In this document: positions 5,663-35,898 of the stretch, one piece after another
Layout: the number at the start of each line of letters is the position of its first letter
Numbering within the stretch: position 1 is the stretch's first letter
Origin: a virus
Lineage: Duplodnaviria > Caudoviricetes
DNA: 64,000 nt
Reading direction: 5' to 3' (one strand)
Virus record (IMG/VR): IMGVR_UViG_3300042139_000023
Translations under genes and position numbers: made by a program
The notes under the pieces: generated by a model
Told to the model about the DNA's origin: nothing
Databases searched by the model: none
What the model saw: the letters and a program-made list of their open reading frames with translations, nothing else

Positions 5663-5664
5663 CC

Positions 5665-6015: not shown

Positions 6016-6017
6016 CC

Positions 6018-7035: not shown

Positions 7036-7402
7036 GAAGATTTCGACCGGACGGTTCCCTGCGCCGCATGTTGCGTGGATCGTGAACCAGCTTCCGCGCG
7101 AACTCCACGGCATGTTCGGATTCCGAGGGGAGGAGGTCCCCGAAAAGTACGACGAGGAGATCGAGTACGTCTACAAGATCGCCTATCCCGACGGGTCCGC
7201 CTATCTGAAGTCCCTCCTGGTGGAGTACATCTCGGGCCGGGGTATTCCCACTGGCTTCATCATCGACGACGAGATCGATCTGGACGGCGTCAGGATGATC
7301 GTGAAGAACCACCTCCAGCGGGATGTGCAGTCCGGCGGAGAGGGTTCCGCGTACGTCTACCACCGGGTCACCGTCGACCTTCCGGAGGATGTCGATGGCT
7401 GA
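7016..7402 (+). CDS. hypothetical protein
   Basis: GTG after GGAG; overlaps neighbours. Confidence 0.6.
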   Translation: MTSREVEKISTGRFPAPHVAWIVNQLPRELHGMFGFRGEEVPEKYDEEIEYVYKIAYPDGSAYLKSLLVEYISGRGIPTGFIIDDEIDLDGVRMIVKNHLQRDVQSGGEGSAYVYHRVTVDLPEDVDG

Positions 7403-7931: not shown

Positions 7932-7976
7932 AGGACCGGGCCGTCACCCCACAGGGCGGCCGGAAAGGAGAGGGTC

Positions 7977-8591: not shown

Positions 8592-8824
8592 AGATCCCGC
8601 CCCTTTTCGAGGTGGTGCAGCAGGCGATCCTGGGATTCCTCTCGGCCGCCGTGGTGAGCGGAGTCTGGTGGCTGGTCACCGGATCCCTCCCGGACGGCAT
8701 GGAGTTGTGGGCCGGTTCGTTCACCGTGATGTGGGCCGGATCGGTCTTCCTGCGGATGCAGAAGGCGCGCGAGGTGCGCGCCCTGCGTGAAATGTACGAT
8801 CGCCCGGCCAGCGACGAGAAGTGA
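8588..8824 (+). CDS. small membrane protein
   Basis: GTGA overlap; two TM-like segments. Confidence 0.65.
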   Translation: MKIPPLFEVVQQAILGFLSAAVVSGVWWLVTGSLPDGMELWAGSFTVMWAGSVFLRMQKAREVRALREMYDRPASDEK

Positions 8825-8879
8825 CTGGGGGCCGCCCGCCGGGCGGCCCCTTCCGGAAAGAGAGAAGACCGACGTGAGG

Positions 8880-9329
8880 ATGAACGTGCAGAGCACGAAC
8901 AACACGCACGCGATGAACGCGCTGCGCGTGTACGACGACGGCCGCAGTGCGGCGATCGTCCTGATGGCTTCCGATGACACGGAGATCGAGGATGCGCTGG
9001 GCCGCGTCTTCGAGATCCACGAGGCGCCCCTGTCGGACCTGGAGGCGGGTGTTCCGTGGGGTGCCGACGACGTCGGTGACTGCGAGATCCGTCCCGGCGG
9101 TGTGATGCTGACCGTGGAGGGGACCGGTGGCAGCTTCATGGGCCTGCGCTTCGAGGCGGCATGGAGCACGACGTCCCCGGGTTGGCGCCGGGCGGCCCGC
9201 GACAACGGCTGCGCCTGGCTGGCCCTGCCGGGCCGCTCGACGTACGACCACATCGCCAGGGCGGTCGCTTCGGGCTCCCTGGTGCAGCTCCCGGCCATGC
9301 CGGTGCTGAAGCTGGAGGTGACCCGGTGA
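8880..9329 (+). CDS. hypothetical protein
   Basis: coding bias; start uncertain. Confidence 0.7.
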   Translation: MNVQSTNNTHAMNALRVYDDGRSAAIVLMASDDTEIEDALGRVFEIHEAPLSDLEAGVPWGADDVGDCEIRPGGVMLTVEGTGGSFMGLRFEAAWSTTSPGWRRAARDNGCAWLALPGRSTYDHIARAVASGSLVQLPAMPVLKLEVTR

Positions 9330-9520
9330 GTCGCATCGATAACACGGTGACGACTGTCCTGCTCTGCGGCTGCCGCATCAAGCTGAGGATCAAGCCGTTG
9401 CGGCCCAGCGCCCGGTTCGGCTGCCGCTCCAACCAGGGGCACTCCTACAACCAGCTCTGGGCGTCGTACGAGGACAACGGCCGCACCTTCGAGAACCCCC
9501 TGGTCCCCGCCTCAGTGTGA
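9326..9520 (+). CDS. small Cys-containing hypothetical protein
   Basis: GTGA overlap; LCGC...GC...H. Confidence 0.6.
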   Translation: MSRIDNTVTTVLLCGCRIKLRIKPLRPSARFGCRSNQGHSYNQLWASYEDNGRTFENPLVPASV

Positions 9521-9632
9521 CGATCGCCACGGCCGCAGTGACCAATCCTGGACCCTGCGGCCGTGGCACTGCTGCGAAGATTTCACCAGTGACCGACACC
9601 AGAGAGCGGTTCACCGGAAGGAGAAGGAAGAC

Positions 9633-9902
9633 ATGAGAGTTCCCGTGACGGCCATCGCCAACGGTGAGTTCAGTAATCCCGAGGAAGGCACCACGGCCAC
9701 GGTCGACCGTCTGGTGATGGCTGCCTCGTACTGGAAGGTCAGCGACTCGGCCCTGCGGTCCCTGGTCCACCTCACGGCTCTGGCCTGCGCCTCCGACAAG
9801 GTCGTCTCGATGACCCTGCTGACGGCCGACCTCGACGAGCTGGTCCGGCGTGGCCTCATCCGGTGCGGCGCCGACCGCCCCGACACGGTGGTGCTGATCT
9901 GA
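9633..9902 (+). CDS. hypothetical protein
   Basis: AAGGAG RBS; 89 aa. Confidence 0.7.
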   Translation: MRVPVTAIANGEFSNPEEGTTATVDRLVMAASYWKVSDSALRSLVHLTALACASDKVVSMTLLTADLDELVRRGLIRCGADRPDTVVLI

Positions 9903-10159
9903 TGGCCCTCCAGCGCATCAGCAAAATCGTGAAGACGCCTGAGAACGAAGTGGTCTACGCGATCGGAGACGGAGAGGCGGGCACCGGTTTCCGGATGATC
10001 TGCTCCGGCTGCCCCGGCAAGGACGTCGAGTACAACAGCGCGGCGGCGGCCATCCTCGGCGTCTCGTACCATGCCGAACTGGACCCGGACGAGCGCTTCG
10101 TTCCCACCACGAAGAACCCGCGCCCCAAGCCCCGCGAGATTCCGGAGGATGAGCTGTGA
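9902..10159 (+). CDS. hypothetical protein
   Basis: TGATG overlap; CSGC. Confidence 0.7.
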   Translation: MALQRISKIVKTPENEVVYAIGDGEAGTGFRMICSGCPGKDVEYNSAAAAILGVSYHAELDPDERFVPTTKNPRPKPREIPEDEL

Positions 10160-10905
10160 CCGATGACACCGATTTCGACGGGTGTCACCGGGAGTGCCGG
10201 ACCAAGGGCAAGCACTCCCGGGTGTGGGGCGGCTGCGAGTTCGGCATCCGGCCCGAGCCCACGGTGAGCATGTCGAAGGTCTACACGGCGGGCGACGGCT
10301 ATCCCTCGATCGGGTACGACTCGTACACCGTGGACCAGCTCACCGAGCTGATCGAGCCCGCCCTGAAGGGCATCACCGTGCGCCTCGGCCCGAACTCGTC
10401 GGCCGCCGTCCAGCGCGGCGAGTCGTTCCGCCTCTCCGGCGGCGAGATGTGGGCCATCGCCCGGCAGGCGGCGCACGCGATCGTCCACCGCAACGACCCG
10501 GACCGGCCGCCCCTGGAGACTCCGTTCGTCACGCGAGTCATGGAGATCTTCTCCCTGTCGCACGCCGACAGCTACGGGGATCTGTTCTGGCGGGTGGACG
10601 ACGGCGAGCTGAAGCTGTACGCCAACGTCTCGGACGTCTTCTTCTGGGGCGGCAGCGACGTCGAGGAGATCACCCGTGAGACGCTGCCCGAGCTGGAGAA
10701 GGCGTACGCCGACCTGAAGGCCGTGGAGGCGGAGGAGTTCACGGCTGAGCTGTACGCGGCCCGGCTCCGGAAGATGCGCCCCCAGGGTGCGTACTACCCG
10801 ACGGATGCGCACGAATCCTGGCGACGCGTCTACGCCCTGTTCGACGCCTGCGGGCCAGAGCGGAGCGTCGACGTGGGCAATCCGAAGAAGCCGCCGGTCC
10901 ACTGA
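10156..10905 (+). CDS. hypothetical protein
   Basis: 249 aa, GTGA overlap, strong GC3 bias. Confidence 0.8.
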   Translation: MTDDTDFDGCHRECRTKGKHSRVWGGCEFGIRPEPTVSMSKVYTAGDGYPSIGYDSYTVDQLTELIEPALKGITVRLGPNSSAAVQRGESFRLSGGEMWAIARQAAHAIVHRNDPDRPPLETPFVTRVMEIFSLSHADSYGDLFWRVDDGELKLYANVSDVFFWGGSDVEEITRETLPELEKAYADLKAVEAEEFTAELYAARLRKMRPQGAYYPTDAHESWRRVYALFDACGPERSVDVGNPKKPPVH

Positions 10906-10960
10906 CCGGCACAGCCGCCCGGCCTGAGCCGGGCGGCTCGACCCCGCGAAAGGGAAGACC

Positions 10961-11680
10961 GTGGGCATCCGCCTGAACAAGAAGCTCGGCTGGGCTCTGA
11001 CCGGCCTGGAGCGCGATGAGCACGGACGCCTCACCGATCCGCGCGTCAGTCTCGACGGCGTCAATCGCTACGTGGAGGACTTCGCCCCGCTGTACCTGGG
11101 GTACCTGGAGGCGCTGCGCGACGCGGAGCCCGAGAACTCCGACGCCTGGTTCGACCTGATGATGTCGATCGAGATGGTGAAGGCGGCCCGTGACCAGGAT
11201 GGCGTTCTGAACTGGCCGGTCACCTGCCGGTCGGACGCCGGATACCGCGACCTGCTGCTCATCCAGCCGGTGGGATATCAGGGCTGGAGCCGGTACGGCG
11301 ACCCGCTCGACCAGCAGGAGGAGGCGATGCTGTACCCCGGCATGGAGCCTCGCGTGGTGCCCATGCCGTACGGCATCTACCCCTTCGAGGGGCTGTACAT
11401 GGACAGCCGCACCGGCCAGAAGCTGGACTCCACGGCCAAGCGGATCGTCGACCGGCTGCTGGAGGTGGCCGAGAAGGACGACGACAAGCGTGAGGACCGG
11501 CTGAAGGCGGCCGACCACCTGGCCAAGTCGATGGGGTTCGAGAACGCGGGGCACGCCAAGGAGCACATTGCACCCATCGTGCCGCCCGACGTCCGCTACG
11601 TGATCTCGTGGCTGAACCTGCTCAACGGGCCCGACGCCTGGCTTCAGCTCCGGCCGGTGCTCTACGTCTACTGGTCCTGA
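10961..11680 (+). CDS. hypothetical protein
   Basis: 239 aa, AAGGGAAG RBS; stop abuts the convergent gene stop. Confidence 0.8.
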   Translation: MGIRLNKKLGWALTGLERDEHGRLTDPRVSLDGVNRYVEDFAPLYLGYLEALRDAEPENSDAWFDLMMSIEMVKAARDQDGVLNWPVTCRSDAGYRDLLLIQPVGYQGWSRYGDPLDQQEEAMLYPGMEPRVVPMPYGIYPFEGLYMDSRTGQKLDSTAKRIVDRLLEVAEKDDDKREDRLKAADHLAKSMGFENAGHAKEHIAPIVPPDVRYVISWLNLLNGPDAWLQLRPVLYVYWS

Positions 11681-12529
11681 TCAGAACGCGGTGACCCGCT
11701 TCACCGGCCCCGGGTTCCGGTCCAGATCGACCGGCCGGAACCGGGCGCCGGGCAGAGTGCAGCGCGCCTTCAGCTCGTCCCCCGACATCGCCAGAATGGC
11801 GTCAGCCTGTTCCTCGGCCGGACCGGTGAGCGCCATGTCCCCGTAGCTCAGCCCCTCGAACCCGGCGTGGTACGCCCGGGGTGCGAACGGGAAGGCGACG
11901 TGCAGCCCCTGCTGGGCCATGTCGTTGGCCATCACCCCGTCGTACAGCGGGCCCGTACGCAGCATGTTCTCCTCGCCGAACTCGGCCGTCACGGCGGCGC
12001 CCATCTCGGGGAAGTAGTTCGGCCGCAGGCGCTTCAGGATCTTGCCGATGCGCTCCGGCCGGTAGCTGGAGCCCCAGACCTGGAAGGCCCCCGAGAGGTA
12101 GACGGCGTCAGGCCGGTTCGGCACCCGCACATCGTCGGCGAGGAAGATGTTCTCGCAGGCGCTCACCGAGTAGGCGCCCGGCGCCAGCTTGTGGGTGTCC
12201 CGGTGGAACCCGAAGTACCCCACGCCGATCAGGATGTCCTCCTCCAGGACGTGCACCAGATCGTCCGGGCCCACCCAGTCCAGCGCCTCCTGCATCGCGG
12301 TGAAGACGTTGTAGCTGCCGCTCGGGTAGTCGATGTCGCGCACCTTCAGGACCGCCCGGCCCGGATGTGCGTACTCGAACTCCTTGGCTACGGCCAGAGT
12401 CTCCTCGTCGTGGCCGCAGTCCACGGAGAGCATGACGCGCACCCCGCCGTCCATGGCGCGGGCCAGGCGCCGCAGACATGCCGCAGCGAATCCGGCCCGG
12501 CGCCACAGGGGAACGATCACATAGTCCAC
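11681..12529 (-). CDS. putative GT-A fold glycosyltransferase
   Basis: YVIVPLWRR..., VMLSVDCG, VHVLEEDILI (DxD-like EED); TAGTG overlap with upstream epimerase. Confidence 0.65.
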   Translation of the reverse strand: MDYVIVPLWRRAGFAAACLRRLARAMDGGVRVMLSVDCGHDEETLAVAKEFEYAHPGRAVLKVRDIDYPSGSYNVFTAMQEALDWVGPDDLVHVLEEDILIGVGYFGFHRDTHKLAPGAYSVSACENIFLADDVRVPNRPDAVYLSGAFQVWGSSYRPERIGKILKRLRPNYFPEMGAAVTAEFGEENMLRTGPLYDGVMANDMAQQGLHVAFPFAPRAYHAGFEGLSYGDMALTGPAEEQADAILAMSGDELKARCTLPGARFRPVDLDRNPGPVKRVTAF

Positions 12530-13479
12530 TACTGGGTCGCCTTCCAGAAGGGCAGCCAGTTCTCGGCGTACCACTCGACGGTGCGCCGGATGCCCTCCTC
12601 CAGGGAGACGAAGTCCCGGGCGTCGATCCCCAGAGGCTCCAGCGTGCTTGTGTCGGATCGTACGACAGCACCCGGAACCTCGCCCGGCCTCATCGGAAGA
12701 TGCGTGATCTCGACCGGATCCCGGCCGCTCGACTCGGCGGCGAACCGGGCCACCAGCCGGGCCACGTCGTTGACGGTGCAGGACTCCACCGGACCGACCT
12801 CGGCGGGCTTGTCCAGCGGACCGTGGGCCATCGTGTGCTCCATGGCCGTGACGAAGGAGGAGGCCACGTCGCCCACGTAGACGCAGTCACTGACCTGCTG
12901 GCCGTCTCCGTAGACCTCGATCGCCGTGCTGGTCAGGGCCCGGCAGGTGAAAGCAGGCAGGATCTTGCGGACCTTCGAGGGCCCGTACGGCGCCGCGACG
13001 GACTGCCCCGGCCCGTACGCGTTGACCGGCCGCACCACCGAGACGAGGCCACCCCGGTAGGCGTTGTACATGCGGCCGTAGTCCTCGACGCAGGTCTTCG
13101 AGATCGTGTAGCTGCCGGTCGCGTGATCCCTCATCCAGGCGTTGCCCACGCCCGCGTACACCACCGGAAGGTGGTACTGCACGGCTGCCTCGAAGACGTT
13201 CAGGCCGCCCAGGATGTTCGTCGCGGCCGACGGCCGGGGATTCTGGATCGTCTCCTGCGTGCCGAGCACGGCTGCCAGGTGAATGATCCCGTCCACGTGG
13301 GCGGCCAGTTCTGTGACCGCCGTGGGGCTCTCGATGTCTCCGAGGAAGAAGGACTCTCCGTCGGCCATCGGCGTGCGCGGGTACCGGTCGAACACGGCCA
13401 CTTCGTGGCCGCGCCGCAGCAGCTCCCGGCGCACCCAGCCGCCGATGAAGCCCTGCCCGCCGCTCAGTCCGATCTTCAT
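12529..13479 (-). CDS. NAD-dependent epimerase/dehydratase (extended SDR)
   Basis: GGQGFIG Rossmann motif, IIHLAAV, YTISK (YxxxK), RPVNAYGPGQ, DCVYVGDVA, RPGEV. Confidence 0.92.
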   Translation of the reverse strand: MKIGLSGGQGFIGGWVRRELLRRGHEVAVFDRYPRTPMADGESFFLGDIESPTAVTELAAHVDGIIHLAAVLGTQETIQNPRPSAATNILGGLNVFEAAVQYHLPVVYAGVGNAWMRDHATGSYTISKTCVEDYGRMYNAYRGGLVSVVRPVNAYGPGQSVAAPYGPSKVRKILPAFTCRALTSTAIEVYGDGQQVSDCVYVGDVASSFVTAMEHTMAHGPLDKPAEVGPVESCTVNDVARLVARFAAESSGRDPVEITHLPMRPGEVPGAVVRSDTSTLEPLGIDARDFVSLEEGIRRTVEWYAENWLPFWKATQ

Positions 13480-28987: not shown

Positions 28988-29305
28988 ATGGGTCTCTACT
29001 ACGCCGTTCCCGTGCGGCGCGAGAGCAGGACGCTGACGTACAACCCGCTCGACGGTCACTGCGCTCTGGCCATCACGCCGATGGACGCCGTGATCCAGCT
29101 CGGCATGCCCAAGGCGGGCACGATGATCGCCGTGTGGCCGCTCACCCGGAAGGTCACCCTGGAGGAGGCCGGGCAGGCGTGCTCGCTCATGGCGCCGCTC
29201 AGGATCTTCATCATCGTCGACCAGGAGGAGGGCGTGATGTTCCCGCTCGGCCTGGACCCGGCGCTCGACGCGGTCATGGAGGTGCCCCATGCTGGTCGCG
29301 ACTGA
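28988..29305 (+). CDS. hypothetical protein
   Basis: ATG after AAGGA; overlaps ATPase start. Confidence 0.7.
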   Translation: MGLYYAVPVRRESRTLTYNPLDGHCALAITPMDAVIQLGMPKAGTMIAVWPLTRKVTLEEAGQACSLMAPLRIFIIVDQEEGVMFPLGLDPALDAVMEVPHAGRD

Positions 29306-30590
29306 GGAGGAACTGCGCCTCCTGGACCTCCTCACGCCCGAGTACTGGGACCCCCAGGCCAAGGCGCGGGGTCTGCGCGGCGTGAATCTGGACTCCGCCA
29401 AGCTGACCGAGTCCGGGGTCGTCGCCGTCCTCAAGCTCGACGGACGCGACATGATCAAGGAGCTGCGGGCTAAGCACCAGGCCATACGCGCCATGCTTGA
29501 CGTGCTCGACGAGCACCTGAGCGACCTCTCCCCCGGCGGCCGGTCCTCGAAGGTGCTGTTCGCGGTGCGCACCCGGTACATCACCGACGAGCTGGACATG
29601 TTCTGGCACCCCGACATCACCACGCTCGGCCTCGACACCGTCACGGGCGAAGAGGTCGACGTTCCGCGCAACGAGCGCCTGCTGGTCGGCGGCGCCTCGG
29701 GATCCGGCAAGAGCTGGTCCACGCGTGCCCTGATGGCCCGCGCCGTCGTCCACCCCGACGAGGAGCTGGGCGGATTCATCGACGGGAAGGGGGAAGAGGC
29801 CACGGTCTGGCGCGGCATCTGCACCTGTGCCGTGACCCACGAAGAGATCATCGAGATGATCGAGCGCGAGCACGCCCGGATGGAGGACCGGGCCGCCCAG
29901 ATGGCCAAGCTCGGGATCTCGAAGTGGGACCTGAAGCTCGGCCCGCGCAGGCTCATCCCGATCGACGAGGGCTACTCCGTCCTCCAGGCTGTGATCGACG
30001 AGGACAAGAGGCGCGGCAAGGCGCCGAAGGGTGACGAGGAGTACGCCTTCCTCGAAGGCCCCGACAAGTCCGTGATGCAGAAGCTCACCGAGCTGTCCAG
30101 CCAGGGCCGCTCGCGCGAGATCATCATCATGTGGATGACCCAGAACCCGCTCCGCTCGGGCGACGACCGGGGCATCACCTCGGGCATCCGCACGAACTTC
30201 GACTTCTCGCTCTGCCTTCGCGTCAACACCCCGCAGAACACCGACACGGTGCTCGGTCCCGGGGCGGGCGTGGAGCCGCACTTCCTCCCGCGCGGCCCGC
30301 GCTTCCGAGGGCACGGCTACCTGAACGTGCACGGCCCCAACCTCGTGCGCACCTGGACCGTCACGGACGAGATGGTGGCCCTCCTGGCGCACCCGGACCA
30401 CGGCCGTGGCAAGTACCCCCGCGATGTCGCTCTGCGGGCGCTGCGCGGCCAGCCGCAGGCCGTCTGGACCCCCGCTCTCCTCGCGACCCACACGGGCTGC
30501 GGCGTGACGCAGGCCAGCCGTTTCCTCCGGTCGTTCACCCGTGAGGGTCTGATCGTCGCGGACGGGGAGAACTTCCGGTTGGCGGTCTGA
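29289..30590 (+). CDS. FtsK/SpoIIIE-family (TraB-like) ATPase with C-terminal HTH
   Basis: Walker A GASGSGKS, IDGKG.E, Walker B IPIDEG, SQGRSREIIIMWMTQNP; C-terminal TPALLATHTGCGVTQASRFL. Confidence 0.8.
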   Translation: MLVATEEELRLLDLLTPEYWDPQAKARGLRGVNLDSAKLTESGVVAVLKLDGRDMIKELRAKHQAIRAMLDVLDEHLSDLSPGGRSSKVLFAVRTRYITDELDMFWHPDITTLGLDTVTGEEVDVPRNERLLVGGASGSGKSWSTRALMARAVVHPDEELGGFIDGKGEEATVWRGICTCAVTHEEIIEMIEREHARMEDRAAQMAKLGISKWDLKLGPRRLIPIDEGYSVLQAVIDEDKRRGKAPKGDEEYAFLEGPDKSVMQKLTELSSQGRSREIIIMWMTQNPLRSGDDRGITSGIRTNFDFSLCLRVNTPQNTDTVLGPGAGVEPHFLPRGPRFRGHGYLNVHGPNLVRTWTVTDEMVALLAHPDHGRGKYPRDVALRALRGQPQAVWTPALLATHTGCGVTQASRFLRSFTREGLIVADGENFRLAV

Positions 30591-30600
30591 CCTGGATCGG

Positions 30601-30630
30601 TTGACCTAGGCCAGCAACACCCGGTAGAGT
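30601..30630 (+). promoter_or_regulatory. sigma70/HrdB-type promoter for tRNA cluster
   Basis: TTGACC-N18-TAGAGT; GACCTAGGCC operator-like palindrome overlaps the -35. Confidence 0.75.
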
Positions 30631-30741
30631 TTCACTTAGTTCGGGAATCCGACACCCGAGCGAAACGCTCCGAACCGGTTACGGCCCGGCTCGGCGCACC
30701 GATCCACCGGAGGCGGTCCGACACGCTTCCGGATGGATCAC

Positions 30742-30815
30742 TGGCGGGTAGCTCAGTTGGTCAGAGCATCGGACTGATAATCCGAAGGTCGAGAGTTCAA
30801 GTCTCTCCCCGCCAA
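30742..30815 (+). tRNA. tRNA-Ile(GAU), CCA not encoded
   Basis: acceptor TGGCGGG/CCCGCCA, D arm GCTC/GAGC, anticodon arm TCGGA-CTGATAA-TCCGA, T arm GAGAG-TTCAAGT-CTCTC. Confidence 0.93.
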
Positions 30816-30843
30816 CTGGACCTGAATTACAGGTCCGCATTAC

Positions 30844-30939
30844 CCCCGCTCTCGGCTGTAGAAAGCTGGTGGCGGGGTGACGTACCACTGAGGATTCCGT
30901 TGGGGAGGCACCCCGGGTGGCACCCGGGCCACGGAGTCC
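30844..30939 (+). ncRNA. candidate structured RNA between tRNA genes
   Basis: CCCCGC/GCGGGG stem (30844-30877) and 9-bp GGATTCCGT/ACGGAGTCC stem enclosing GGGG-AGGCA-CCCC / CCCGGG-TGGCA-CCCGGG; no credible ORF. Confidence 0.35.
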
Positions 30940-30968
30940 GCTGCTCGGCGATTGGCAGGTCGCCGAGC

Positions 30969-31052
30969 GCCCACGTTGTGTAGCGGTCTAGCACATCGCC
31001 CCACTGGTAATTCCAGCGGGCGGAGGCGCCGGTTCAAATCCGGTCGTGGGCT
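30969..31052 (+). ncRNA. tRNA-like RNA (Glu/Asp-like body) with 18-nt hairpin-containing anticodon loop
   Basis: acceptor GCCCACG/CGTGGGC; D arm GTGT/GCAC; stem TCGCC/GGCGG; T arm GCCGG-TTCAAAT-CCGGT; loop contains CTGG/CCAG hairpin. Confidence 0.8.
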
Positions 31053-31136
31053 CTCCGGTTGGAGTGGAAGATGAATCGGACGATTCCGTGTAGAACTCCT
31101 GAAAGCGGAATCTGGGCTGGACTATTGGGTCTGGCG

Positions 31137-31254
31137 GTGCATGTGCCTGAGCGGCCTAAAGGTGCCTGCTGAAGCTCTCCCAGGAGTGGGGGCAGGCGAC
31201 CTGACGGAACTGGGATTTCCGGAGGGTCCACGGGTTCGAATCCCGTCGTGCACA
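31137..31254 (+). ncRNA. class-II tRNA-like RNA with 24-nt anticodon loop and oversized variable arm
   Basis: acceptor GTGCATG/CGTGCAC+A; D region CCTGAGCGGCCTAAAGG; stem GCCTG/CAGGC; variable arm GACC..CGGAA/TTCCG..GGTC; T arm ACGGG-TTCGAAT-CCCGT. Confidence 0.8.
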
Positions 31255-31264
31255 CGTGAACGGA

Positions 31265-31402
31265 ATGGAGAAGGAAAAGGAGAAGCCGGTCGGGCCGGTC
31301 GTTCTCCAGGAGGACGGAATCACGTTCCTCTCCGTCAAGGAGCTGGACGACTACCGCGAGCAGAAGATCCTGCTCGCCTGGCAGGAAGGTGCATATGTCT
31401 GA
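31265..31402 (+). CDS. small hypothetical protein (45 aa)
   Basis: ATG GAG AAG... open to TGA at 31402; overlaps next start. Confidence 0.45.
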   Translation: MEKEKEKPVGPVVLQEDGITFLSVKELDDYREQKILLAWQEGAYV

Positions 31403-31583
31403 CGCTGACGCCCTGGATGCCGCATCCGATGCGGTGAACTCCGGGCCCGCAGCAACGCAGTCGCACTCCATCGGCAACTACGGATCCAGCGAGCTGACTC
31501 GCACGGAGGTTCCGGACAAGCCGCAGGCCAAGATGAGCGGTGTTCCGCCGGAGCAGTGGGCCCGCCCCGTTCAGAAGCGCTGA
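31395..31583 (+). CDS. small hypothetical protein
   Basis: ATG after AGGAAGG. Confidence 0.55.
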   Translation: MSDADALDAASDAVNSGPAATQSHSIGNYGSSELTRTEVPDKPQAKMSGVPPEQWARPVQKR

Positions 31584-31601
31584 CCCTCGGAAAGGGAGAA
31601 C

Positions 31602-32351
31602 GTGACGTACACCATCGAGAAGATCCGCGAGATCGCCCCGGGCCTGGAGAAGCCCTTCCAGAAGGCGAGCTTCGCGGCGAACCAGCATGGCCTGGACGGC
31701 GAGCGGGCGGCCGTCTACCTCGTGCTCGACCGCTCCGGGTCGATGGACTGGCCGGGGCGCGGCTACTACAGCGGCGGCGCCGTCCAGTACTTCGCCGAGC
31801 GCATCCTGGGCATGGCTCCGCTCTTCGAGGACGACGGCCGGGTGCCGGTCGTGTTCTTCGACCACGAGCTGAAGGGCATGGACGAGCTGTCCCTGGAGGA
31901 CTACCAGGGCAAGATCGCCAAGGCGCACTCCAAGCTCGGCCACATGGGCGGTACGGACTACGCCGTCGCCATGGACGCCGTGGTGCAGCACTACCAGTCC
32001 ACCGGCAAGTCGGTTCCCGCCCTGGTCATCTTCCAGACCGACGGCTCGCCCAGGGACAAGAAGGCCGCCGCCCGGCGCATCTGCCAGTACGCGAACCTGC
32101 CGATCTTCTGGCAGTTCGTCGGCTTCGGCGAGGACCGCGAGTACGACTACGACGACGAGGAGGGCCTGGGCTTCCTCCAGCGCCTCGACGACATCCCGGT
32201 CCCGCAGTACCGGCCCATCGACAACTCGGACTTCTTCGCCGTCGGCCAGGACCCGACCGCGATGCGTGACGCCGAGCTGTACCGGCGCCTGATGAACGAG
32301 TTCCCGGGCTGGCTGGCCAAGGCCCGCCAGATGGGCATCGTCCGCGTCTGA
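31602..32351 (+). CDS. vWA-domain protein (TerF C-terminal vWA-like)
   Basis: VYLVLDRSGSM, GGTDYAVAM, VIFQTDG, LPIFWQFVGFG, FLQRLDD, DNSDFF. Confidence 0.85.
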   Translation: MTYTIEKIREIAPGLEKPFQKASFAANQHGLDGERAAVYLVLDRSGSMDWPGRGYYSGGAVQYFAERILGMAPLFEDDGRVPVVFFDHELKGMDELSLEDYQGKIAKAHSKLGHMGGTDYAVAMDAVVQHYQSTGKSVPALVIFQTDGSPRDKKAAARRICQYANLPIFWQFVGFGEDREYDYDDEEGLGFLQRLDDIPVPQYRPIDNSDFFAVGQDPTAMRDAELYRRLMNEFPGWLAKARQMGIVRV

Positions 32352-32360
32352 GGAGGACTC

Positions 32361-32558
32361 ATGGCCAAGCCCGCGTACGCCCGCGAGGCGGCACAGGTGA
32401 AGACGGCCCACCCGGATCTCGACGACGCCACGGCCCGGCGAGTCGCGGAGACCTACGTACAGGTCTCCCGTGACAGCGGTACGCCGCTTCCGGAGCTGCT
32501 GGCCGAGTCGGTGCGAGCCGAGAACAGCTCGGCCGCAGGCAACCAGACCGGCGCCTGA
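32361..32558 (+). CDS. small hypothetical protein
   Basis: GAGGAGG RBS. Confidence 0.65.
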   Translation: MAKPAYAREAAQVKTAHPDLDDATARRVAETYVQVSRDSGTPLPELLAESVRAENSSAAGNQTGA

Positions 32559-32619
32559 CCGCAACATCCCTTGAGGGGGCCCCGACGGGCCCCCTCTGTC
32601 GTACAGGAGATAAGTCGAC

Positions 32620-33108
32620 ATGTCGATGGCAGTTCTGTTCTACGGCTACAGCCTGGGCGTTCCCGACGACGGCGACTGGGCCATCAAGAACACGGACGAG
32701 TTCGAGCCGGACTGGCTCACCGAGTACGAGGCGGCCCTGGAGAAGGATGACGACGGCGAGGGCTACGAGTTCTACATGCGCCGCGCCCTCCTGCTGGCCT
32801 CCGGCGTCCCCGACGACCTGATCACCAGGGGCAACGCCGAGGCCACGCTGAAGGAACAGGGCCTGGAGGTCATCACCTTCGGGCACTCCAACACGCAGTT
32901 CTACGGTCTGGCACTCGCGGGCTCCGTGTACGAGGCGGACGACTGGTCGCCGAAGTGCATTGACCCGAACTTCGAGTGGAACCCGAACATCCGCATCCCG
33001 GGCGTCGACTTCCCCGACGACGGCTACCTGCACAACGGCCTGCGCGCCCTGTCGATGGAGCCCGTCCAGGAGCGGGCCTCCTGGATCATCGCCCCTCGGG
33101 AGTACTAA
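32620..33108 (+). CDS. hypothetical acidic protein
   Basis: AGGAG RBS; coding bias. Confidence 0.75.
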   Translation: MSMAVLFYGYSLGVPDDGDWAIKNTDEFEPDWLTEYEAALEKDDDGEGYEFYMRRALLLASGVPDDLITRGNAEATLKEQGLEVITFGHSNTQFYGLALAGSVYEADDWSPKCIDPNFEWNPNIRIPGVDFPDDGYLHNGLRALSMEPVQERASWIIAPREY

Positions 33109-33113
33109 AAGAC

Positions 33114-33143
33114 TTGCGATCCCCTCGCAGGATCCCGTAATGT
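33114..33143 (+). promoter_or_regulatory. sigma70-type promoter for the Y-RNA-like array
   Basis: TTGCGA-N18-TAATGT; expected +1 falls at about 33150-33151, the first base of RNA unit 1. Confidence 0.75.
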
Positions 33144-33150
33144 TTTATCT

Positions 33151-33228
33151 GCACCCCGGAGCGTTCGTGCGAACGGTTACTTCATCCTGCGAAGAGAACA
33201 CCGGGCGCCATCTTGTTGGCCGGGGCGC
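33151..33228 (+). ncRNA. Y-RNA-like unit 1 (short, no full tRNA domain)
   Basis: terminal stem GCACCCCGG/CCGGGGCGC; shared motifs CCGGAGCG, AACGGTTACTTC, ACCGGG, GTTGGCCGG. Confidence 0.65.
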
Positions 33229-33230
33229 GT

Positions 33231-33394
33231 AACAGAAGATCCAGAAGGGTTACCGGAGCGTTTTGAGAAACGGTTACTTCTTCTGGAAAAAGAAACTGAG
33301 GGCGGGTTCGAATCCCGTCGTTGCCGACGCTTGGCATAACTGGCAAACACCGGGTCTCGCCTAGTTGGCCGGTGGCTCCTCTGGATCTTCTGTT
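33231..33394 (+). ncRNA. Y-RNA-like unit 2 with permuted tRNA-like domain
   Basis: 15-bp outer stem AACAGAAGATCCAGA/TCTGGATCTTCTGTT; same four motifs; anticodon-like arm TTCTT-CTGGAAA-AAGAA, then T arm GCGGG-TTCGAAT-CCCGT, then D-loop-like TAACTGGCAAAC. Confidence 0.7.
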
Positions 33395-33399
33395 TCTCG

Positions 33400-33580
33400 G
33401 TGTGTGGGTGAGGTGCCCGGAGCGTCTTGGCAACGGTTACTTCACAGTGGAACCAAATGTTTCAGGTTCGAGTCCTGATCCGCGAGCTTGCTCGTGGATA
33501 GCTCAATTGGCAGAGCGTTGGTCGAGGAAGGTTCGAAAGAACCACCGGGGCCTATCTGTTGGCCGGGCACCCCACACATA
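33400..33580 (+). ncRNA. Y-RNA-like unit 3 (YrlA-type circularly permuted tRNA domain)
   Basis: outer stems GTGTGTGG/CCACACAT and GGTGCCCGG/CCGGGCACC; ACCAA-ATGTT-[TCAGG TTCGAGT CCTGA]-[TCCGCGAGC TT GCTCGTGGA]-TA-[GCTC AATTGGCA GAGC]-G-TTGGT. Confidence 0.8.
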
Positions 33581-33592
33581 CATCGAGACGCG

Positions 33593-33625
33593 CCCCCTGC
33601 TCCCATCCCGGGACAGGGGGTTTTT
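33593..33625 (+). terminator. intrinsic terminator between RNA array and TROVE gene
   Basis: CCCCCTG-C-TCCC/GGGA-CAGGGGG followed by TTTTT. Confidence 0.8.
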
Positions 33626-33651
33626 GCGTTTCAAGGAAAGGGAGAAGGGTC

Positions 33652-35343
33652 ATGGCAACGTTCAACAAGCCGGGCGCGAAGGCGCGCGTCACGTCCCAGG
33701 TGAAGACGACCGGCACGACCAAGACGTTCGAAGGCGCGAGCGGTTTCACGCGCAGCCCGCTGTCGGACCTCTACCTGCTCTCGGTGTCCAACCTCGTCGG
33801 CAAGGACGCGTTCTACGAGCGCGCCAGCGACCGCAACGAGCGCTACGTGGACCTCCTGCACGGCACCGCCCTGCTGGAGCAGGAGCACGTCACGGCCATG
33901 CTGCCGTGGCTGCGCACCGACGGCTACATGCGCACCACGTCGCTCCTCGCGGCGGCCGAGGTCGCCAAGACGCTCTGCGACGAGCACCGGTACAAGGGCG
34001 TCGAGGACATGGTCGACGGGGTGCTCCAGCGTGCCGACGAGCCGGGCGAGTTCATCGCCTACTGGTTCTCGATCGCGGGCAAGGCGTGGCCGAAGCGCTA
34101 CCTGCCGGTCAAGAAGGGCCTGAAGCGGGCCGTCGCACGCCTGTACACCGAGTACTCGTACAGCAAGTACGACTCGCCGCGCCGGGCCTACCGGTTCGCC
34201 GACGTGATCGACATCGTCCACCCGGCGCCGACCGCCCAGTGGCAGTCGGACCTGTTCCGGCTGATCCTCGACCGGCGCCACGGGCACAGCGGCGCGATCA
34301 CGCCGACCCTGTCGATGACGCGCAACCAGCGCGAGTGGCGCCAGGCGGCTGCGGGTGTCCCGCGCAAGGCGTCGGCCGAGTACATCTACGGGTCGGGCCT
34401 GATCGCCCCGCAGGTGCTCAAGGACGCGGGCCTCACGTGGGAGGACGTGCTGTCGGAGCTGGGCGGCAAGGTCGACAAGAAGCTGCTGTGGGAGGCGATG
34501 ATCCCGACCATGGCGCCGGGCGCGCTGATCAAGAACCTGCGCAACTTCGACGAGGCCGGTGTCTCCGACGCCTCGGCCGACGCGGTGGCGAAGGTGCTCT
34601 CGGACAGCGAGCGCGTGCGGAAGGCCCGGCTCTTCCCGTACCGCTTCCTGTCGGCGTACCGCGCCCTGTCGTCGCTGCGCTGGGGCCACACCCTGGAGCG
34701 CGGCCTGGCGGGTTCGCTGGAGCTGGTTCCGACCCTGCGGGGGAAGACCCTGATCCTCGTGGACCGCAGCCCGTCCATGTTCCCGGGCATGTGGGGTTCC
34801 ACCCCGCACAAGGGGGACATCTCGCTGGCCGACCAGGCGGCGCTCTTCGGGGCGGCGCTGGCCGTGAAGGCGCAGGACGCCAAGCTCGTCGAGTTCGGTG
34901 GCGACCAGGCGCTCGGCGGCTGGAACAGCCGGGGTGGCGGCGCCGGTTCGCGCACGGTCAACGTGCCGCGCGGGGCGAGCGTCCTGAAGATCGTCGAGAG
35001 CTTCGGCCCGTCGATCAACGGGACCGACATCCCGCGCGCCGTGAAGGACAACTTCACGAGCGAGTTCAACCGCGTCGTGATCGTCACGGACGAGCAGTCG
35101 CGGCCGGGCTGGCTCCCGTCGAACATGGGCGGGCGCACCTACGGCATGCCGGAGACGCGGATCGACGACCTGATCCCGAAGACCGTTCCGGTCTACCTGT
35201 GGAACATGGCGGGCTACGCGGGCTCCATCCTGGAGACCGGTGGCACCAACCGTCACTGCTTCGGTGGCCTCTCGGACGCGAGCTTCGGCCTGATCCAGCT
35301 TCTGGAGCAGGGCAAGAACGCGCCGTGGCCGTGGATGAAGTGA
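33652..35343 (+). CDS. rsr: Ro60/TROVE-domain RNA-binding protein with C-terminal vWA domain
   Basis: N-terminal T.TFEG..GF...P..DLYLL..SNLVGKDAFYE; YMRT..., RADEP, YSKYD, ALIKNLRNF, RLFPYRFLSAY, LILVDRSPSM (MIDAS), VIVTDEQ, LWNMAGY; ATG at 33652 after AAGGGAGAAGG. Confidence 0.9.
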   Translation: MATFNKPGAKARVTSQVKTTGTTKTFEGASGFTRSPLSDLYLLSVSNLVGKDAFYERASDRNERYVDLLHGTALLEQEHVTAMLPWLRTDGYMRTTSLLAAAEVAKTLCDEHRYKGVEDMVDGVLQRADEPGEFIAYWFSIAGKAWPKRYLPVKKGLKRAVARLYTEYSYSKYDSPRRAYRFADVIDIVHPAPTAQWQSDLFRLILDRRHGHSGAITPTLSMTRNQREWRQAAAGVPRKASAEYIYGSGLIAPQVLKDAGLTWEDVLSELGGKVDKKLLWEAMIPTMAPGALIKNLRNFDEAGVSDASADAVAKVLSDSERVRKARLFPYRFLSAYRALSSLRWGHTLERGLAGSLELVPTLRGKTLILVDRSPSMFPGMWGSTPHKGDISLADQAALFGAALAVKAQDAKLVEFGGDQALGGWNSRGGGAGSRTVNVPRGASVLKIVESFGPSINGTDIPRAVKDNFTSEFNRVVIVTDEQSRPGWLPSNMGGRTYGMPETRIDDLIPKTVPVYLWNMAGYAGSILETGGTNRHCFGGLSDASFGLIQLLEQGKNAPWPWMK

Positions 35344-35446: not shown

Positions 35447-35845
35447 ATGGCAAATTCATTCGAGACCGGCGGGGAAGTCCTGACGGTCGGCAGCAAGGTC
35501 GTCGTGTTCGACGGCAACAGCCAGCGCGAGCTGGCCATCACCAGCATCGGAACCAAGCGGGTCTTCATCGAGTCGGCGTACGGCTTCAGGCCGGTCCCCT
35601 TCAGCAAGGAGGACCGCACGTCCCAGCAGGGGGCCTACCACCAGTACTTCAAGACGCTGACCGAAGTGGCCCTGGAGCAGGAGCGGGCGGTCGCGAAGTC
35701 CCGCCTGCGCGACCTGGGGATCGAGGCCAGGATTTCCGGCCACGGCAAGGACGGCCTGGACCCCTACTCCGTGGACACGCTGCGCGAGATCGCCGGGATC
35801 CTGGAGGCTGCGAAGCTCAAGTTCGAGCAATCCCAACAAGGTTGA
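35447..35845 (+). CDS. hypothetical protein
   Basis: AGGAG RBS; 132 aa. Confidence 0.75.
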   Translation: MANSFETGGEVLTVGSKVVVFDGNSQRELAITSIGTKRVFIESAYGFRPVPFSKEDRTSQQGAYHQYFKTLTEVALEQERAVAKSRLRDLGIEARISGHGKDGLDPYSVDTLREIAGILEAAKLKFEQSQQG

Positions 35846-35898
35846 GGCATTTCGACCCGGGGCTGTGCTAAGCTGGCCTAGGCCGAAAGGGGAAGTAC

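What the first reader, a model, noticed from the sequence alone, without database searches (positions are those of the whole stretch)
30601..35343. Possible integrated tRNA-mimic / Ro60 RNA-surveillance module
Seen: in under 5 kb lie a promoter, tRNA-Ile, extra structured RNA, two tRNAs with inserted anticodon loops, a TerF-like vWA gene, the Y-RNA-like array and Ro60. Known: bacterial rsr-yrl loci are often linked to RtcB RNA repair and respond to tRNA damage, and hosts use anticodon nucleases against phages. Inference: the element may deploy decoy or repairable tRNA mimics plus Ro60 to counter tRNA-targeting defence or to remodel host RNA decay (PNPase tethering). No RtcB or RNA ligase is visible in this window.
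Basis: inference. Interest (0 to 1): 0.85.

Follow-up and report, generated by a model that had tools for sequence, protein, structure and literature searches.

The report
Phage Ro60, Y RNAs, tRNA mimics
A large lytic Streptomyces phage carries a Ro60 RNA-binding protein with three partner Y RNAs, which is a known kind of particle; just upstream sits a conserved small-RNA operon with one real tRNA and two tRNA look-alikes whose anticodon loops are closed off, and I found no published description of these look-alikes.

Summary
The window comes from a cluster-BM Streptomyces phage (nearest named relative Frankenweenie).

Unit 2 is a promoter, three Y-RNA modules (33150-33587), a terminator and Ro60 (33652-35343). 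This is a Ro60/YrlA-type particle, known in actinobacteria and phages since 2014. This scan has also met phage Ro60 with partner RNAs near tRNA genes many times on other DNA.

Unit 1 (30601-31255) is a promoter, structured leader, tRNA-Ile(GAU), and two non-decoding tRNA mimics. TL2 has a tRNA-Glu-like body and TL3 is class II. Their cloverleaves are strongly supported by covariation, but the anticodon loop is replaced by a closed, extended arm.

Both RNA units, Ro60 and a ProQ-C-like gene are kept in all 10 BM-like loci examined. The genes between them vary:
- vWA-TerF: 5 of 10
- Rnl-type RNA ligase, inserted between the Y array and Ro60: 4 of 10
- ATP-grasp_Ter: 2 of 10

In Satis, Ro60 and all three Y-RNA handles changed together while the tRNA-mimic operon did not.

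RtcB, Thg1 and a CCA-adding enzyme are absent from five complete relatives.

The "integrated anti-defence module" reading is only partly supported. The mimics lack the loop that anticodon nucleases cut. Their function is unknown.

The parts
30601..30630 (+). Promoter P1 (-35 TTGACC, 18-nt spacer, -10 TAGAGT). A palindrome-like site TGACCTAGGCCA at 30602-30613 overlaps the -35.
   Evidence: Invariant in the alignments.
30637..30741 (+). Structured leader RNA of about four hairpins. Two loops carry UCCGAC and one carries GGUUAC.
   Evidence: Read from the alignments (stems change in a paired way in Kela, Satis, L134, L135). Not tested with shuffles.
30742..30816 (+). tRNA-Ile(GAU), the only decoding tRNA in the window.
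30817..30968 (+). Spacer S1: four conserved hairpins. The last one abuts the 5' end of TL2.
   Evidence: 11 of 47 pairs compensatory.
30969..31052 (+). TL2: non-decoding tRNA mimic with a tRNA-Glu-like body. Its anticodon arm is a 6-bp stem, a small internal loop, an invariant CUGG/CCAG stem and a variable 5-6-nt loop. Discriminator U; no encoded CCA.
   Evidence: The TL2 model's best hits outside the family are tRNA-Glu(UUC) of BRock and a pSt2308 gene annotated tRNA-Glu (56 and 55 bits).
31053..31136 (+). Spacer S2: conserved hairpins. The last one abuts the 5' end of TL3.
   Evidence: Alignments.
31137..31254 (+). TL3: class-II (long variable arm) non-decoding tRNA mimic. Its anticodon arm is a 7-bp stem, an internal loop (GAA opposite GGR), a covarying 4-5-bp stem and a YCCA loop. 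Discriminator A; no encoded CCA.
31265..31583 (+). Two small overlapping ORFs (45 aa at 31265-31402; 62 aa at 31395-31583). Both are conserved in BM-like phages and have no family.
31602..32351 (+). vWA-TerF-like protein (249 aa). Accessory: present in 5 of 10 BM-like loci.
32361..32558 (+). 65-aa ORF with no family, followed by a G+C-rich hairpin at about 32572-32597.
32620..33108 (+). 162-aa protein of a phage-restricted family. It sits directly upstream of the Y-array promoter in all examined loci except Kela. No known fold.
33114..33143 (+). Promoter P2 of the Y array (-35 TTGCGA, 18-nt spacer, -10 TAATGT; the -10 reads TAGAGT in L135).
   Evidence: Near-invariant block in the alignments. 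Below the consensus-scan threshold, so the promoter call is an inference.
33150..33229 (+). Y1: short Y RNA (a handle plus hairpins, no tRNA-like domain), YrlB-like.
33237..33388 (+). Y2: Y RNA with the same handle. Its interior is a T-arm-containing domain here and a simple hairpin in L134 and L135.
33396..33587 (+). Y3: YrlA-type Y RNA. It has a long closing stem with a bulged helix, UUAC, and a circularly permuted tRNA-like domain (T arm, closed acceptor-like stem, D arm). ARAGORN miscalls it as tRNA-Pro.
33593..33625 (+). Intrinsic terminator (7-bp G+C stem plus U5) ending the Y array, 27 nt before the Ro60 start.
   Evidence: conserved.
33652..35343 (+). Ro60 (Rsr) orthologue, 563 aa: TROVE domain plus a C-terminal vWA with a DxSxS motif.
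35447..35845 (+). ProQ-C-terminal-like protein (132 aa). It follows Ro60 in every BM-like locus and was not found in other Ro60 phage lineages.

Best explanation
The region holds two neighbouring non-coding-RNA units of a lytic cluster-BM Streptomyces phage.

Unit 2 (shown by sequence): a promoter drives three Y RNAs (Y1 short, Y2 intermediate, Y3 a full YrlA type with a permuted tRNA-like domain). A terminator ends the array and the Ro60 gene follows, read by read-through. Inferred: together they form a phage Ro60-Y RNA particle. By analogy with Deinococcus and Salmonella Rsr and with Thermus phage phiLo Ro60, this particle would engage host PNPase and redirect or damp decay of structured RNA during infection.

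Unit 1 (shown by sequence): a strong promoter that overlaps an operator-like palindrome drives a roughly 620-nt precursor. It holds conserved hairpins, tRNA-Ile(GAU) and two tRNA mimics. The mimics keep a 7-bp acceptor stem, D arm, T arm and elbow, but the anticodon loop is replaced by a closed, extended helix. Inferred: host RNase P and 3'-end enzymes release them and host CCA-adding enzyme finishes them. The result is stable tRNA-shaped RNAs that cannot decode. Most likely they compete for host factors that recognise the tRNA body or acceptor end without entering translation.

Link between the units: it rests on conserved neighbourhood only. In several relatives an Rnl-type RNA ligase is inserted beside Ro60, which points to tRNA/RNA damage as the shared theme.
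For: Ro60 identity:
-.
- About 50% identity to Streptomyces TROVE proteins.

Y array:
- Exactly three handle motifs in 64 kb, all upstream of Ro60 on its strand.
- Y3 covariation: 18 of 61 pairs, 0 of 500 shuffles.
- Partial Rfam YrlA match over the tRNA-like domain.
- The same GG(U/A)GCG..CGGUUAC handle sits upstream of a Streptomyces chromosomal TROVE gene.
- The array is better conserved than neighbouring coding DNA: 97/95/94/86/85% against 87/81/82/75/75%.

Protein and RNA change together:
- Satis has a 36%-identical Ro60.
- All three of its handles switch from GGAGCG with GUUGGCC to GGUGCG with GUUAACC.

Precedents:
- M. smegmatis YrlA and YrlB are processed from one precursor upstream of rsr, and D. 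radiodurans Yrn2-tRNA-Asp-Yrn1 is polycistronic (PMC4201824).
- phiLo Ro60 binds two upstream Y-like RNAs and forms ternary complexes with host PNPase (PMC12135203).

tRNA mimics:
- Covariation.
- tRNA-Glu-like body of TL2.
- ARAGORN gives a different 'identity' in each relative (Val, undetermined, Pyl, His, Arg, Ser), and the anticodon arm itself differs: a 3-nt loop in Satis, a 10-bp stem in L140.
- The normal 10-11-gene tRNA array lies 35-40 kb away.

Neighbourhood.

No + strand terminator with a U-run is predicted between P1 and the end of the Y array.
Against: - No expression, processing, binding or phenotype data exist. A soil metatranscriptome contig identical to 33198-33434 is at depth 2-4 and could be DNA carry-over.
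- The Rfam YrlA score is below the family's gathering threshold (33.6 against 69 bits).
- The published GNCGAA motif is clear only in Y1.
- The PNPase link is pure analogy.
- Nothing shows that TL2 or TL3 act in trans or meet Ro60.
- The two units have separate promoters, and in Satis Ro60 and its Y array diverged far more than the tRNA-mimic unit.
- All co-conservation is within one phage family.
Confidence: 0.6

Rival explanations
1. One reading: one integrated counter-defence module. The tRNA mimics are decoys or repairable substitutes for host tRNAs attacked by anticodon nucleases. Ro60 with its Y RNAs, and where present the RNA ligase, handle the damaged RNAs.
For: - Conserved neighbourhood in all BM-like loci, and a tRNA-like cluster upstream of Ro60 in the distant L139.
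- An RNA ligase is inserted between the Y array and Ro60 in 4 loci.
- Thg1, RNA ligase and NADAR lie near Ro60 in L138; RlaP and Macro lie near it in L137.
- A published speculation holds that the YrlA tRNA-like domain could be a competitive inhibitor of an anticodon nuclease (PMC7790460).
Against: - TL2 and TL3 have no anticodon loop and no conserved anticodon, so loop-cutting nucleases have nothing to cut and nothing needs repair.
- This phage and its four closest complete relatives have no RNA ligase, RtcB, Thg1 or CCA-adding enzyme.
- Ro60 with its Y array is exchanged without the tRNA-mimic unit.
- No host defence system is identified.
Confidence: 0.15
2. TL2 and TL3 are cis-acting processing punctuation only. 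These tRNA-shaped elements recruit RNase P and RNase Z to cut the long precursor, release the hairpin RNAs, and create the 5' end of the downstream mRNA. They have no function of their own.
For: - Conserved hairpins abut both TL 5' ends.
- The TL3 3' trailer CACGUGAACGG runs straight into the ribosome-binding site and start of the next ORF, and is invariant.
- No terminator follows TL3.
- An earlier scan note on another phage read an anticodon-armless tRNA body as a processing handle.
Against: - Punctuation needs only an acceptor and T-arm minihelix. Here the D arm, the long variable arm and sequence-specific parts of the extended anticodon arm are also conserved: CUGCUGAA, the YCCA loop, and the invariant CUGG/CCAG stem.
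- Two different mimics are kept in every genome.
Confidence: 0.2
3. TL2 or TL3 are charged with an amino acid by a synthetase that ignores the anticodon (TL3 has a class-II shape with A73) and serve a non-ribosomal aminoacyl-tRNA-dependent reaction.
For: - Intact acceptor stems, conserved discriminators, and a long variable arm in TL3.
- That the seryl- and leucyl-tRNA synthetases do not read the anticodon is textbook knowledge and was not tested here.
Against: - No aminoacyl-tRNA-using enzyme was found nearby.
- TL2 has a tRNA-Glu-like body, and GluRS does read the anticodon (my own knowledge).
- No test was possible.
Confidence: 0.05
4. TL2 and TL3 are decaying tRNA pseudogenes, and the Y-like modules are chance structures.
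For: tRNA finders give erratic identities.
Against: - 98-99% of the sequence-by-position pair cells form a standard base pair across 8 diverged sequences, with 16 and 8 compensatory pairs. For TL3 no shuffle reaches any of the five measures. For TL2 0-1 of 500 shuffles reach four of the five measures; the fifth, further pair types, is reached in 326 of 500.
- The Y array is more conserved than neighbouring genes.
Confidence: 0.02

Closest known systems
Actinobacterial Rsr (Ro60) with YrlA/YrlB Y RNAs (M. smegmatis; Chen et al. 2014, PMC4201824; Rfam RF02553)
   Same: - Ro60 with TROVE and vWA domains.
- Several Y RNAs directly upstream on the same strand, apparently from one precursor.
- One has a permuted tRNA-like domain (T arm, closed acceptor-like stem of at least 7 bp, D arm) and the others are simpler.
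- A UUAC (YUAY) element and near-invariant T and D stems.
- The same handle motif is seen at a Streptomyces chromosomal TROVE locus.
   Different: - Three modules rather than two.
- The Rfam score is below threshold.
- The handle reads GGAGCG with a two-G bulge on the 3' strand instead of GGUGCG(AA).
- The carrier is a lytic phage.
Thermus phage phiLo Ro60 with Yrl1/Yrl2 (PMC12135203; PDB 9KOP, 9L5Y)
   Same: - A phage Ro60 with tandem Y-like RNAs just upstream.
- It is the only solved structure matched by sequence (E 2e-19).
- It gives a model for engaging host PNPase.
   Different: - About 23% identity.
- No tRNA-mimic operon, RNA ligase or Ter-type neighbours are described for it.
D. radiodurans Yrn2-tRNA-Asp-Yrn1 polycistron, and the Salmonella rsr-yrlBA-rtcBA RNA-repair operon (PMC4201824, PMC7790460)
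   Same: - Y RNAs are co-transcribed or co-located with a true tRNA.
- Ro60 is genomically tied to RNA repair. In relatives here the tie is an Rnl-type ligase.
   Different: - No RtcB, RtcA or RtcR here.
- The tRNA lies in a separate upstream unit.
- The ligase is of the ATP-dependent Rnl family and is absent from this phage.
Phage-encoded tRNAs that escape tRNA-cutting defences through anticodon-loop changes, and the stable tRNA-like RNAs of the T4 tRNA cluster
   Same: Phage-borne tRNA-shaped RNAs, grouped with tRNA genes, that may answer host attacks on tRNA.
   Different: Those escape tRNAs still decode. TL2 and TL3 have no anticodon loop at all, and their anticodon arm differs in form between relatives.

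Membership tests
Ro60 / Rsr (TROVE family) | TROVE (HEAT-repeat ring) domain | tested here: met
   - Pfam PF05731, 1.3e-14.
- PHROG 850 over residues 15-561.
- phmmer to phiLo Ro60 over residues 20-484, E 2e-19.
- 48-51% identity to Streptomyces TROVE proteins.
Ro60 / Rsr (TROVE family) | C-terminal vWA domain with a MIDAS DxSxS motif | tested here: met
   The alignment to 9L5Y shows the DrSpS and tDeq motifs aligned with the structure's vWA domain.
Ro60 / Rsr (TROVE family) | Closed ring structure that binds a Y RNA stem | not tested
   No structure prediction or binding test was run for this protein.
YrlA-type Y RNA (Rfam RF02553; Chen et al. 2014) | Encoded within 4 kb of Ro60 on the same strand | tested here: met
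   Y1-Y3 lie 65-500 nt upstream of Ro60 on the + strand.
YrlA-type Y RNA (Rfam RF02553; Chen et al. 2014) | tRNA-like domain in the order V, T arm, closed acceptor-like stem, D arm | tested here: met
   For Y3: Rfam alignment to model positions 23-89. T and D stems are invariant and the acceptor-like stem covaries at 5 of 9 pairs. Y1 lacks the domain and Y2 has only a T arm.
YrlA-type Y RNA (Rfam RF02553; Chen et al. 2014) | Reaches the Rfam gathering score (69 bits) | tested here: not met
   33.6 bits in the window. Y RNAs beside Ro60 in other phages and in Streptomyces score 31-47 bits. The model is built mainly on other taxa.
YrlA-type Y RNA (Rfam RF02553; Chen et al. 2014) | 5' motif GNCGAAN0-1G and the YUAY element | tested here: inconclusive
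   UUAC is invariant in all modules. CGAA is present only in Y1 (GCGAAC); Y2 and Y3 read AAAC or GCAAC.
YrlA-type Y RNA (Rfam RF02553; Chen et al. 2014) | Long stem formed by the 5' and 3' ends, with a bulged helix | tested here: met
   Y3 helix 1 has 27 pairs, 11 of them compensatory, with a conserved 2-nt bulge.
Decoding tRNA (as TL2 and TL3 are annotated in relatives) | Cloverleaf with acceptor, D and T arms | tested here: met
Decoding tRNA (as TL2 and TL3 are annotated in relatives) | 5-bp anticodon stem closing a 7-nt loop with U33, and one anticodon shared by orthologues | tested here: not met
   - TL2: an 18-nt arm extension here, a 3-nt loop in Satis, a 10-bp stem in L140.
- TL3: a 7-bp stem, an internal loop, a further stem and a 4-nt loop.
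- ARAGORN identities differ in every relative.
rsr-rtcBA type RNA-repair operon | RtcB ligase (with RtcA or RtcR) next to rsr | tested here: not met
   No RtcB in Frankenweenie, Kela or Satis. Some relatives carry instead an Rnl-type ligase, PF09414; this window has none.
Ter stress-response gene set (TerD, TerF-vWA, ATP-grasp_Ter) | Several Ter components encoded together | tested here: inconclusive
   - The window has only vWA-TerF.
- L134 and L140 add ATP-grasp_Ter.
- L139 has TerD and ATP-grasp_Ter.
- BRock has TerD and GiJojo has vWA-TerF near Ro60.
- No TerB, TerC or TelA was looked for.

The most novel reading that the evidence does not exclude
Anticodon-less tRNA mimics are a dedicated, undescribed class of phage small RNAs. 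They keep the cloverleaf but have a capped or extended anticodon arm. Examples are TL2 and TL3 here, at least five in L139, and a candidate in Gordonia phage Neville. In this reading they work with the Ro60-Y RNA particle (and, in some relatives, with an Rnl ligase and Ter-type proteins) as non-translating sponges for host toxins or enzymes that recognise the tRNA body or 3' end.
Probability: 0.2. Interest if true: 0.85.

Novelty: new variant of a known kind. Interest (0 to 1): 0.55.

Why it matters
What Ro60 and Y RNAs do for a phage is still open; the only functional work so far is in vitro, on Thermus phage phiLo.

This phage family offers culturable members (Frankenweenie, Kela, JustBecause, Satis) on tractable Streptomyces hosts. 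They form a natural series of variants at one locus:
- with or without an RNA ligase;
- with or without Ter-type genes;
- with two very different Ro60 alleles whose Y-RNA handles have changed to match.

That series makes Ro60-Y RNA recognition and the role of the neighbouring genes directly testable.

The anticodon-less tRNA mimics are a separate point of interest. They are well conserved, and relatives' GenBank records annotate them inconsistently (tRNA-His, tRNA-OTHER, tRNA-Ser or nothing); a Y RNA in Frankenweenie is annotated tRNA-Pro. I found no description of them in the paper library. If they act in trans, they would add a new type of viral tRNA mimic.

Tried and rejected
- Loose DNA pattern for the TL3 anticodon arm in IMG/VR. 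It returned 117+ unrelated G+C-rich matches. The scan was wasted and loci L017-L133 are junk.
- Position-by-position identity of TL2 and TL3 to phage tRNAs. Uninformative; replaced by covariance-model searches.
- The 162-aa protein. AlphaFold model pLDDT 77. No PDB match with E below 0.001; only uncharacterised AlphaFold clusters match. No function assigned.
- ProQ-C-like family in five other Ro60 phage genomes. None found, but the control genomes were also silent, so this is weak.
- Metatranscriptome runs. Short contigs at depth 2-4 cover parts of the region, including 33198-33434. The contigs cannot show strand or ends and DNA carry-over is possible, so they are not used as expression evidence.
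- UCCGACAC loop motif. Not enriched in the window: 5 found, 4.35 expected.
- Archaeal-type bulge-helix-bulge intron or a spliced anticodon loop. By inspection the internal loops are symmetric, not staggered, and Satis shows that removing the insert still leaves no 7-nt loop.
- Kissing interaction in TL3 between the anticodon-arm loop (CCCAG) and the variable-arm loop (CUGGG). Four pairs are invariant and one pair covaries in two lineages. Too little to claim.
- Look-alike stretches in earlier scan windows: none.
- No whole genome is held for the window, so genome-wide absences were tested on complete relatives only.

Full report
**Origin of the window**

The region is 89% identical over 96% of its length to Streptomyces phage Frankenweenie. 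It is 80% identical, in parts, to Kela and JustBecause. Its first 805 bases are 76% identical to Satis, Kradal, Quantum and EhyElimayoE. These are 184-200 kb phages. Frankenweenie, JustBecause and Satis are assigned to cluster BM, and the Frankenweenie authors, finding no integrase or repressor, judge it unlikely to be temperate (PMC10652959). No whole genome is held for the window. A 188.7-kb IMG/VR contig (L007, 99% complete) is the closest relative, with Ro60 96% identical. Sixteen soil and rhizosphere metagenome runs hold half or more of the sampled words of this stretch.

**What is in the sequence**

All parts lie on the + strand, downstream of an FtsK-like gene (29289-30590; Pfam hit below threshold, named from relatives' annotation):

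1. A near-consensus promoter at 30601-30630.
2. A structured leader.
3. tRNA-Ile(GAU) at 30742-30816.
4. A spacer with four hairpins.
5. TL2 at 30969-31052.
6. A second spacer.
7. TL3 at 31137-31254.
8. With no terminator in between, two small ORFs, a vWA-TerF-like gene (PF10138, 5e-55), a 65-aa ORF and a 162-aa ORF.
9. A second, fully conserved promoter-like block at 33114-33143.
10. Three Y-RNA modules at 33150-33587.
11. An intrinsic terminator at 33593-33625.
12. Ro60 at 33652-35343.
13. A ProQ-C-terminal-like gene at 35447-35845.

**Ro60 and the Y array**

The protein matches three independent resources:
- Pfam TROVE.
- PHROG 850 over its whole length.
- The solved Thermus phage phiLo Ro60, including the DxSxS motif of the vWA domain.

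It is 48-51% identical to TROVE proteins of Streptomyces chromosomes. That is closer than to Ro60 of other actinophage clusters, which are 35-40% identical.

The handle motif GG(A/T)GCG, then 3-16 nt, then CGGTTAC occurs exactly three times in the 64-kb window. It likewise occurs three times in every BM-like locus, always just upstream of Ro60.

All three modules share one plan:
- a closing stem;
- a CCGG/CCGG helix;
- a two-base bulge on the 3' strand;
- an AGCG:UGUU helix;
- a CGGU:ACCG helix followed by UAC.

The modules differ inside that frame:
- Y3 encloses a circularly permuted tRNA-like domain. The domain matches Rfam YrlA positions 23-89 at 33.6 bits, E 9e-5, below the 69-bit threshold.
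- Y2 has only a T arm, and L134 and L135 have a plain hairpin instead.
- Y1 is a short hairpin RNA.

For Y3, 18 of 61 pairs show compensatory change, which no shuffle of 500 reaches. Sliding the partner columns drops pairing from 98% to 35-42%. The T and D stems never vary and the closed acceptor-like stem covaries, as described for YrlA (PMC4201824).

The array is more conserved than the neighbouring coding DNA.

A Streptomyces anulatus TROVE gene, which lies in a prophage-like region, is preceded by two modules with the same GGUGCG..CGG(U/A)UACUUC handle. These are therefore ordinary members of the actinobacterial Y-RNA family. Tandem Y RNAs from one precursor upstream of rsr, and Y RNAs co-transcribed with a tRNA, are published (PMC4201824). 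So are phage Ro60 genes with upstream Y-like RNAs (PMC12135203). Earlier follow-ups in this scan also found phage Ro60-like genes with partner RNAs in tRNA arrays on other DNA.

**Protein and RNA change together**

Satis-type phages keep the same locus and the same three-module plan. Their Ro60, however, is only 36% identical, while the flanking FtsK-like, 162-aa and ProQ-like proteins are 88%, 77% and 62% identical. In all three Satis modules the handle changes from GGAGCG with GUUGGCC to GGUGCG with GUUAACC. The GGUGCG form also occurs at a distant phage locus, L009, and at the Streptomyces chromosomal locus L136. This fits direct Ro60-handle recognition. It also shows that the unit that is exchanged, or that evolves fast, is Y array plus Ro60. 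The upstream tRNA-mimic operon stays at about 73% identity.

**The tRNA mimics**

TL2 and TL3 are real, conserved cloverleaves.

| | Sequence-by-position pair cells that pair (8 diverged sequences) | Compensatory pairs | Shuffles of 500 that reach this |
|---|---|---|---|
| TL3 | 98% | 16 of 38 | 0 |
| TL2 | 99% | 8 of 26 | 1 |

Neither can decode.
- TL2's anticodon arm is a 6-bp covarying stem, a small internal loop, an invariant CUGG/CCAG stem and a loop that differs in length and sequence between relatives.
- In Satis that arm is a 5-bp stem with a 3-nt loop. In L140 it is a 10-bp stem with a 7-nt loop.
- TL3's arm is a 7-bp stem, an internal loop, a covarying 4-5-bp stem and a YCCA loop. 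TL3 also has a long covarying variable arm.
- ARAGORN and GenBank assign a different identity in almost every genome: Val, undetermined, Pyl, His, Arg, Ser.

A covariance model of TL2 finds, outside the family, tRNA-Glu(UUC) of phage BRock (anticodon per its annotation) and a pSt2308 gene annotated only as tRNA-Glu as its best hits (56 and 55 bits). TL2 is therefore a tRNA-Glu-like body with a disabled anticodon arm. TL3 has no clear parent.

The ordinary tRNA set of BM phages (10-11 genes, none of class II) lies 35-40 kb away. Neither mimic encodes CCA.

I found no paper describing such RNAs.

**Co-conservation test**

| Feature | BM-like loci with it (of 10: window, L001, L002, L003, L007, L008, L010, L134, L135, L140) |
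|---|---|
| tRNA-Ile/TL2/TL3 operon, Y array, Ro60, ProQ-C-like gene | all 10 |
| 162-aa gene | 9 |
| vWA-TerF | 5 |
| Rnl-type RNA ligase (PF09414), always between the Y terminator and Ro60 | 4 |
| ATP-grasp_Ter, just after Ro60 | 2 |

Sources. JustBecause also has an annotated RNA ligase at this place.

More distant phages:
- L139 (Ro60 54%) has TerD, a cluster containing tRNA-Ile(GAU), tRNA-Ile(UAU) and at least five tRNA-like RNAs with capped or extended anticodon arms, then ATP-grasp_Ter, a YrlA-like RNA and Ro60. The L139 RNAs are single-sequence folds.
- L138 (Ro60 52%) has NADAR, Thg1 and an RNA ligase 6-9 kb downstream of Ro60.

In other actinophage lineages Ro60 lies inside or beside normal tRNA arrays (GiJojo, pSt2308, BRock, Atuin, Neville). 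Sub-threshold YrlA hits lie nearby in several.

RtcB, Thg1, a CCA-adding enzyme and ATP-grasp_Ter are absent from the five nearest complete genomes, and RNA ligase from four of them.

**Reading**

The Ro60-Y RNA particle is a known kind, here with three RNAs. The analogy to PNPase-linked decay is the best available mechanism, but it is inference.

The tRNA-mimic operon is the less ordinary part. Its members are under clear structural selection and cannot decode. They sit next to Ro60 throughout this phage family, and similar RNAs appear in at least one distant relative. Because they lack an anticodon loop, they cannot be cleavable or repairable decoys for loop-cutting nucleases. Uncleavable competitors for factors that read the tRNA body or 3' end, or mere processing punctuation, remain open.

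The ligase inserted beside Ro60 in some relatives, and the recurrent Ter-type neighbours, are suggestive but untested links.

Noticed in passing
window 30602-30613 and 35874-35885: Promoter P1 of the tRNA/tRNA-mimic operon overlaps TGACCTAGGCCA, one mismatch from the palindrome TGGCCTAGGCCA. That palindrome has 16 matches at up to 2 mismatches in the window against 2.4 expected. An earlier follow-up read it as the operator of a phage GntR repressor, so this RNA operon may belong to that regulon.
   Followed up: partly
L001 6794-6884 (Frankenweenie gene 148); L003 6371-6440 (Satis gene 141); L006 3704-3775 (VanLee gene 125): Likely GenBank mis-annotations. Frankenweenie 'tRNA-Pro(tgg)' is the tRNA-like domain of Y3. 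Satis 'tRNA-His' is the anticodon-less TL2. VanLee 'tRNA-Arg(tct)' lies among YrlA-like hits and gets no Rfam tRNA match.
   Followed up: partly
L139 3400-5350: A more distant phage contig (Ro60 54% identical) carries tRNA-Ile(GAU), tRNA-Ile(UAU) and at least five cloverleaf-like RNAs upstream of ATP-grasp_Ter, a YrlA-like RNA and Ro60. Their anticodon arms end in 3-4-nt loops or long hairpins. These are single-sequence folds only.
   Followed up: partly
L015 6722-6791 (Gordonia phage Neville, inside its tRNA array, 1.7 kb after Ro60): An unannotated tRNA-shaped RNA whose anticodon arm is an 8-bp stem with a 4-nt loop. It is another possible anticodon-less mimic in an unrelated Ro60 phage.
   Followed up: no
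L004 8390-9277 (GiJojo 'CobT-like'); L014 7163-7762 (BRock 'stress protein'); L139 1237-1914 and 6273-7301; L134 and L140: Ter-system-type proteins (vWA-TerF-like, TerD, ATP-grasp_Ter) recur within a few kb of Ro60 in at least three Streptomyces phage lineages. Another window of this scan was also flagged for a TROVE-TerD pairing. Whether this exceeds what the accessory-gene region would give by chance was not tested.
   Followed up: partly
L003 8197-9810 compared with window 33652-35343: Two Ro60 alleles only 36% identical occupy the same locus in one phage cluster. In Kela it is the neighbouring FtsK-like gene that is the diverged one (46%). This is local mosaicism around a conserved RNA scaffold.
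   Followed up: yes
window 31179-31183 and 31210-31214: The TL3 anticodon-arm loop (CCCAG) and variable-arm loop (CUGGG) are complementary. Four pairs are invariant and the fifth is C-G in five sequences, U-A in two and C-A in one. TL2 uses the same CUGG/CCAG as an invariant stem.
   Followed up: partly
window 32572-32597: A 10-bp G+C hairpin without a U-run follows the 65-aa ORF. It may be a U-less terminator or attenuator between the vWA block and the 162-aa gene. If so, the two RNA units would not be co-transcribed.
   Followed up: no
L136 (Streptomyces anulatus chromosome) 1-12800: The chromosomal TROVE gene with its two Y RNAs sits among phage-tail-like (DUF5047), resolvase and DNA-ligase genes. 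At least some 'host' Ro60 loci of Streptomyces may therefore be prophage or island cargo.
   Followed up: no
L012 2232-2330; L013 1193-1281: Gaps in the main tRNA arrays of Frankenweenie and Satis hold further acceptor-plus-T-arm RNAs without a normal anticodon arm. The Satis one carries the UCCGACAC motif also seen in two leader hairpin loops of the window.
   Followed up: no
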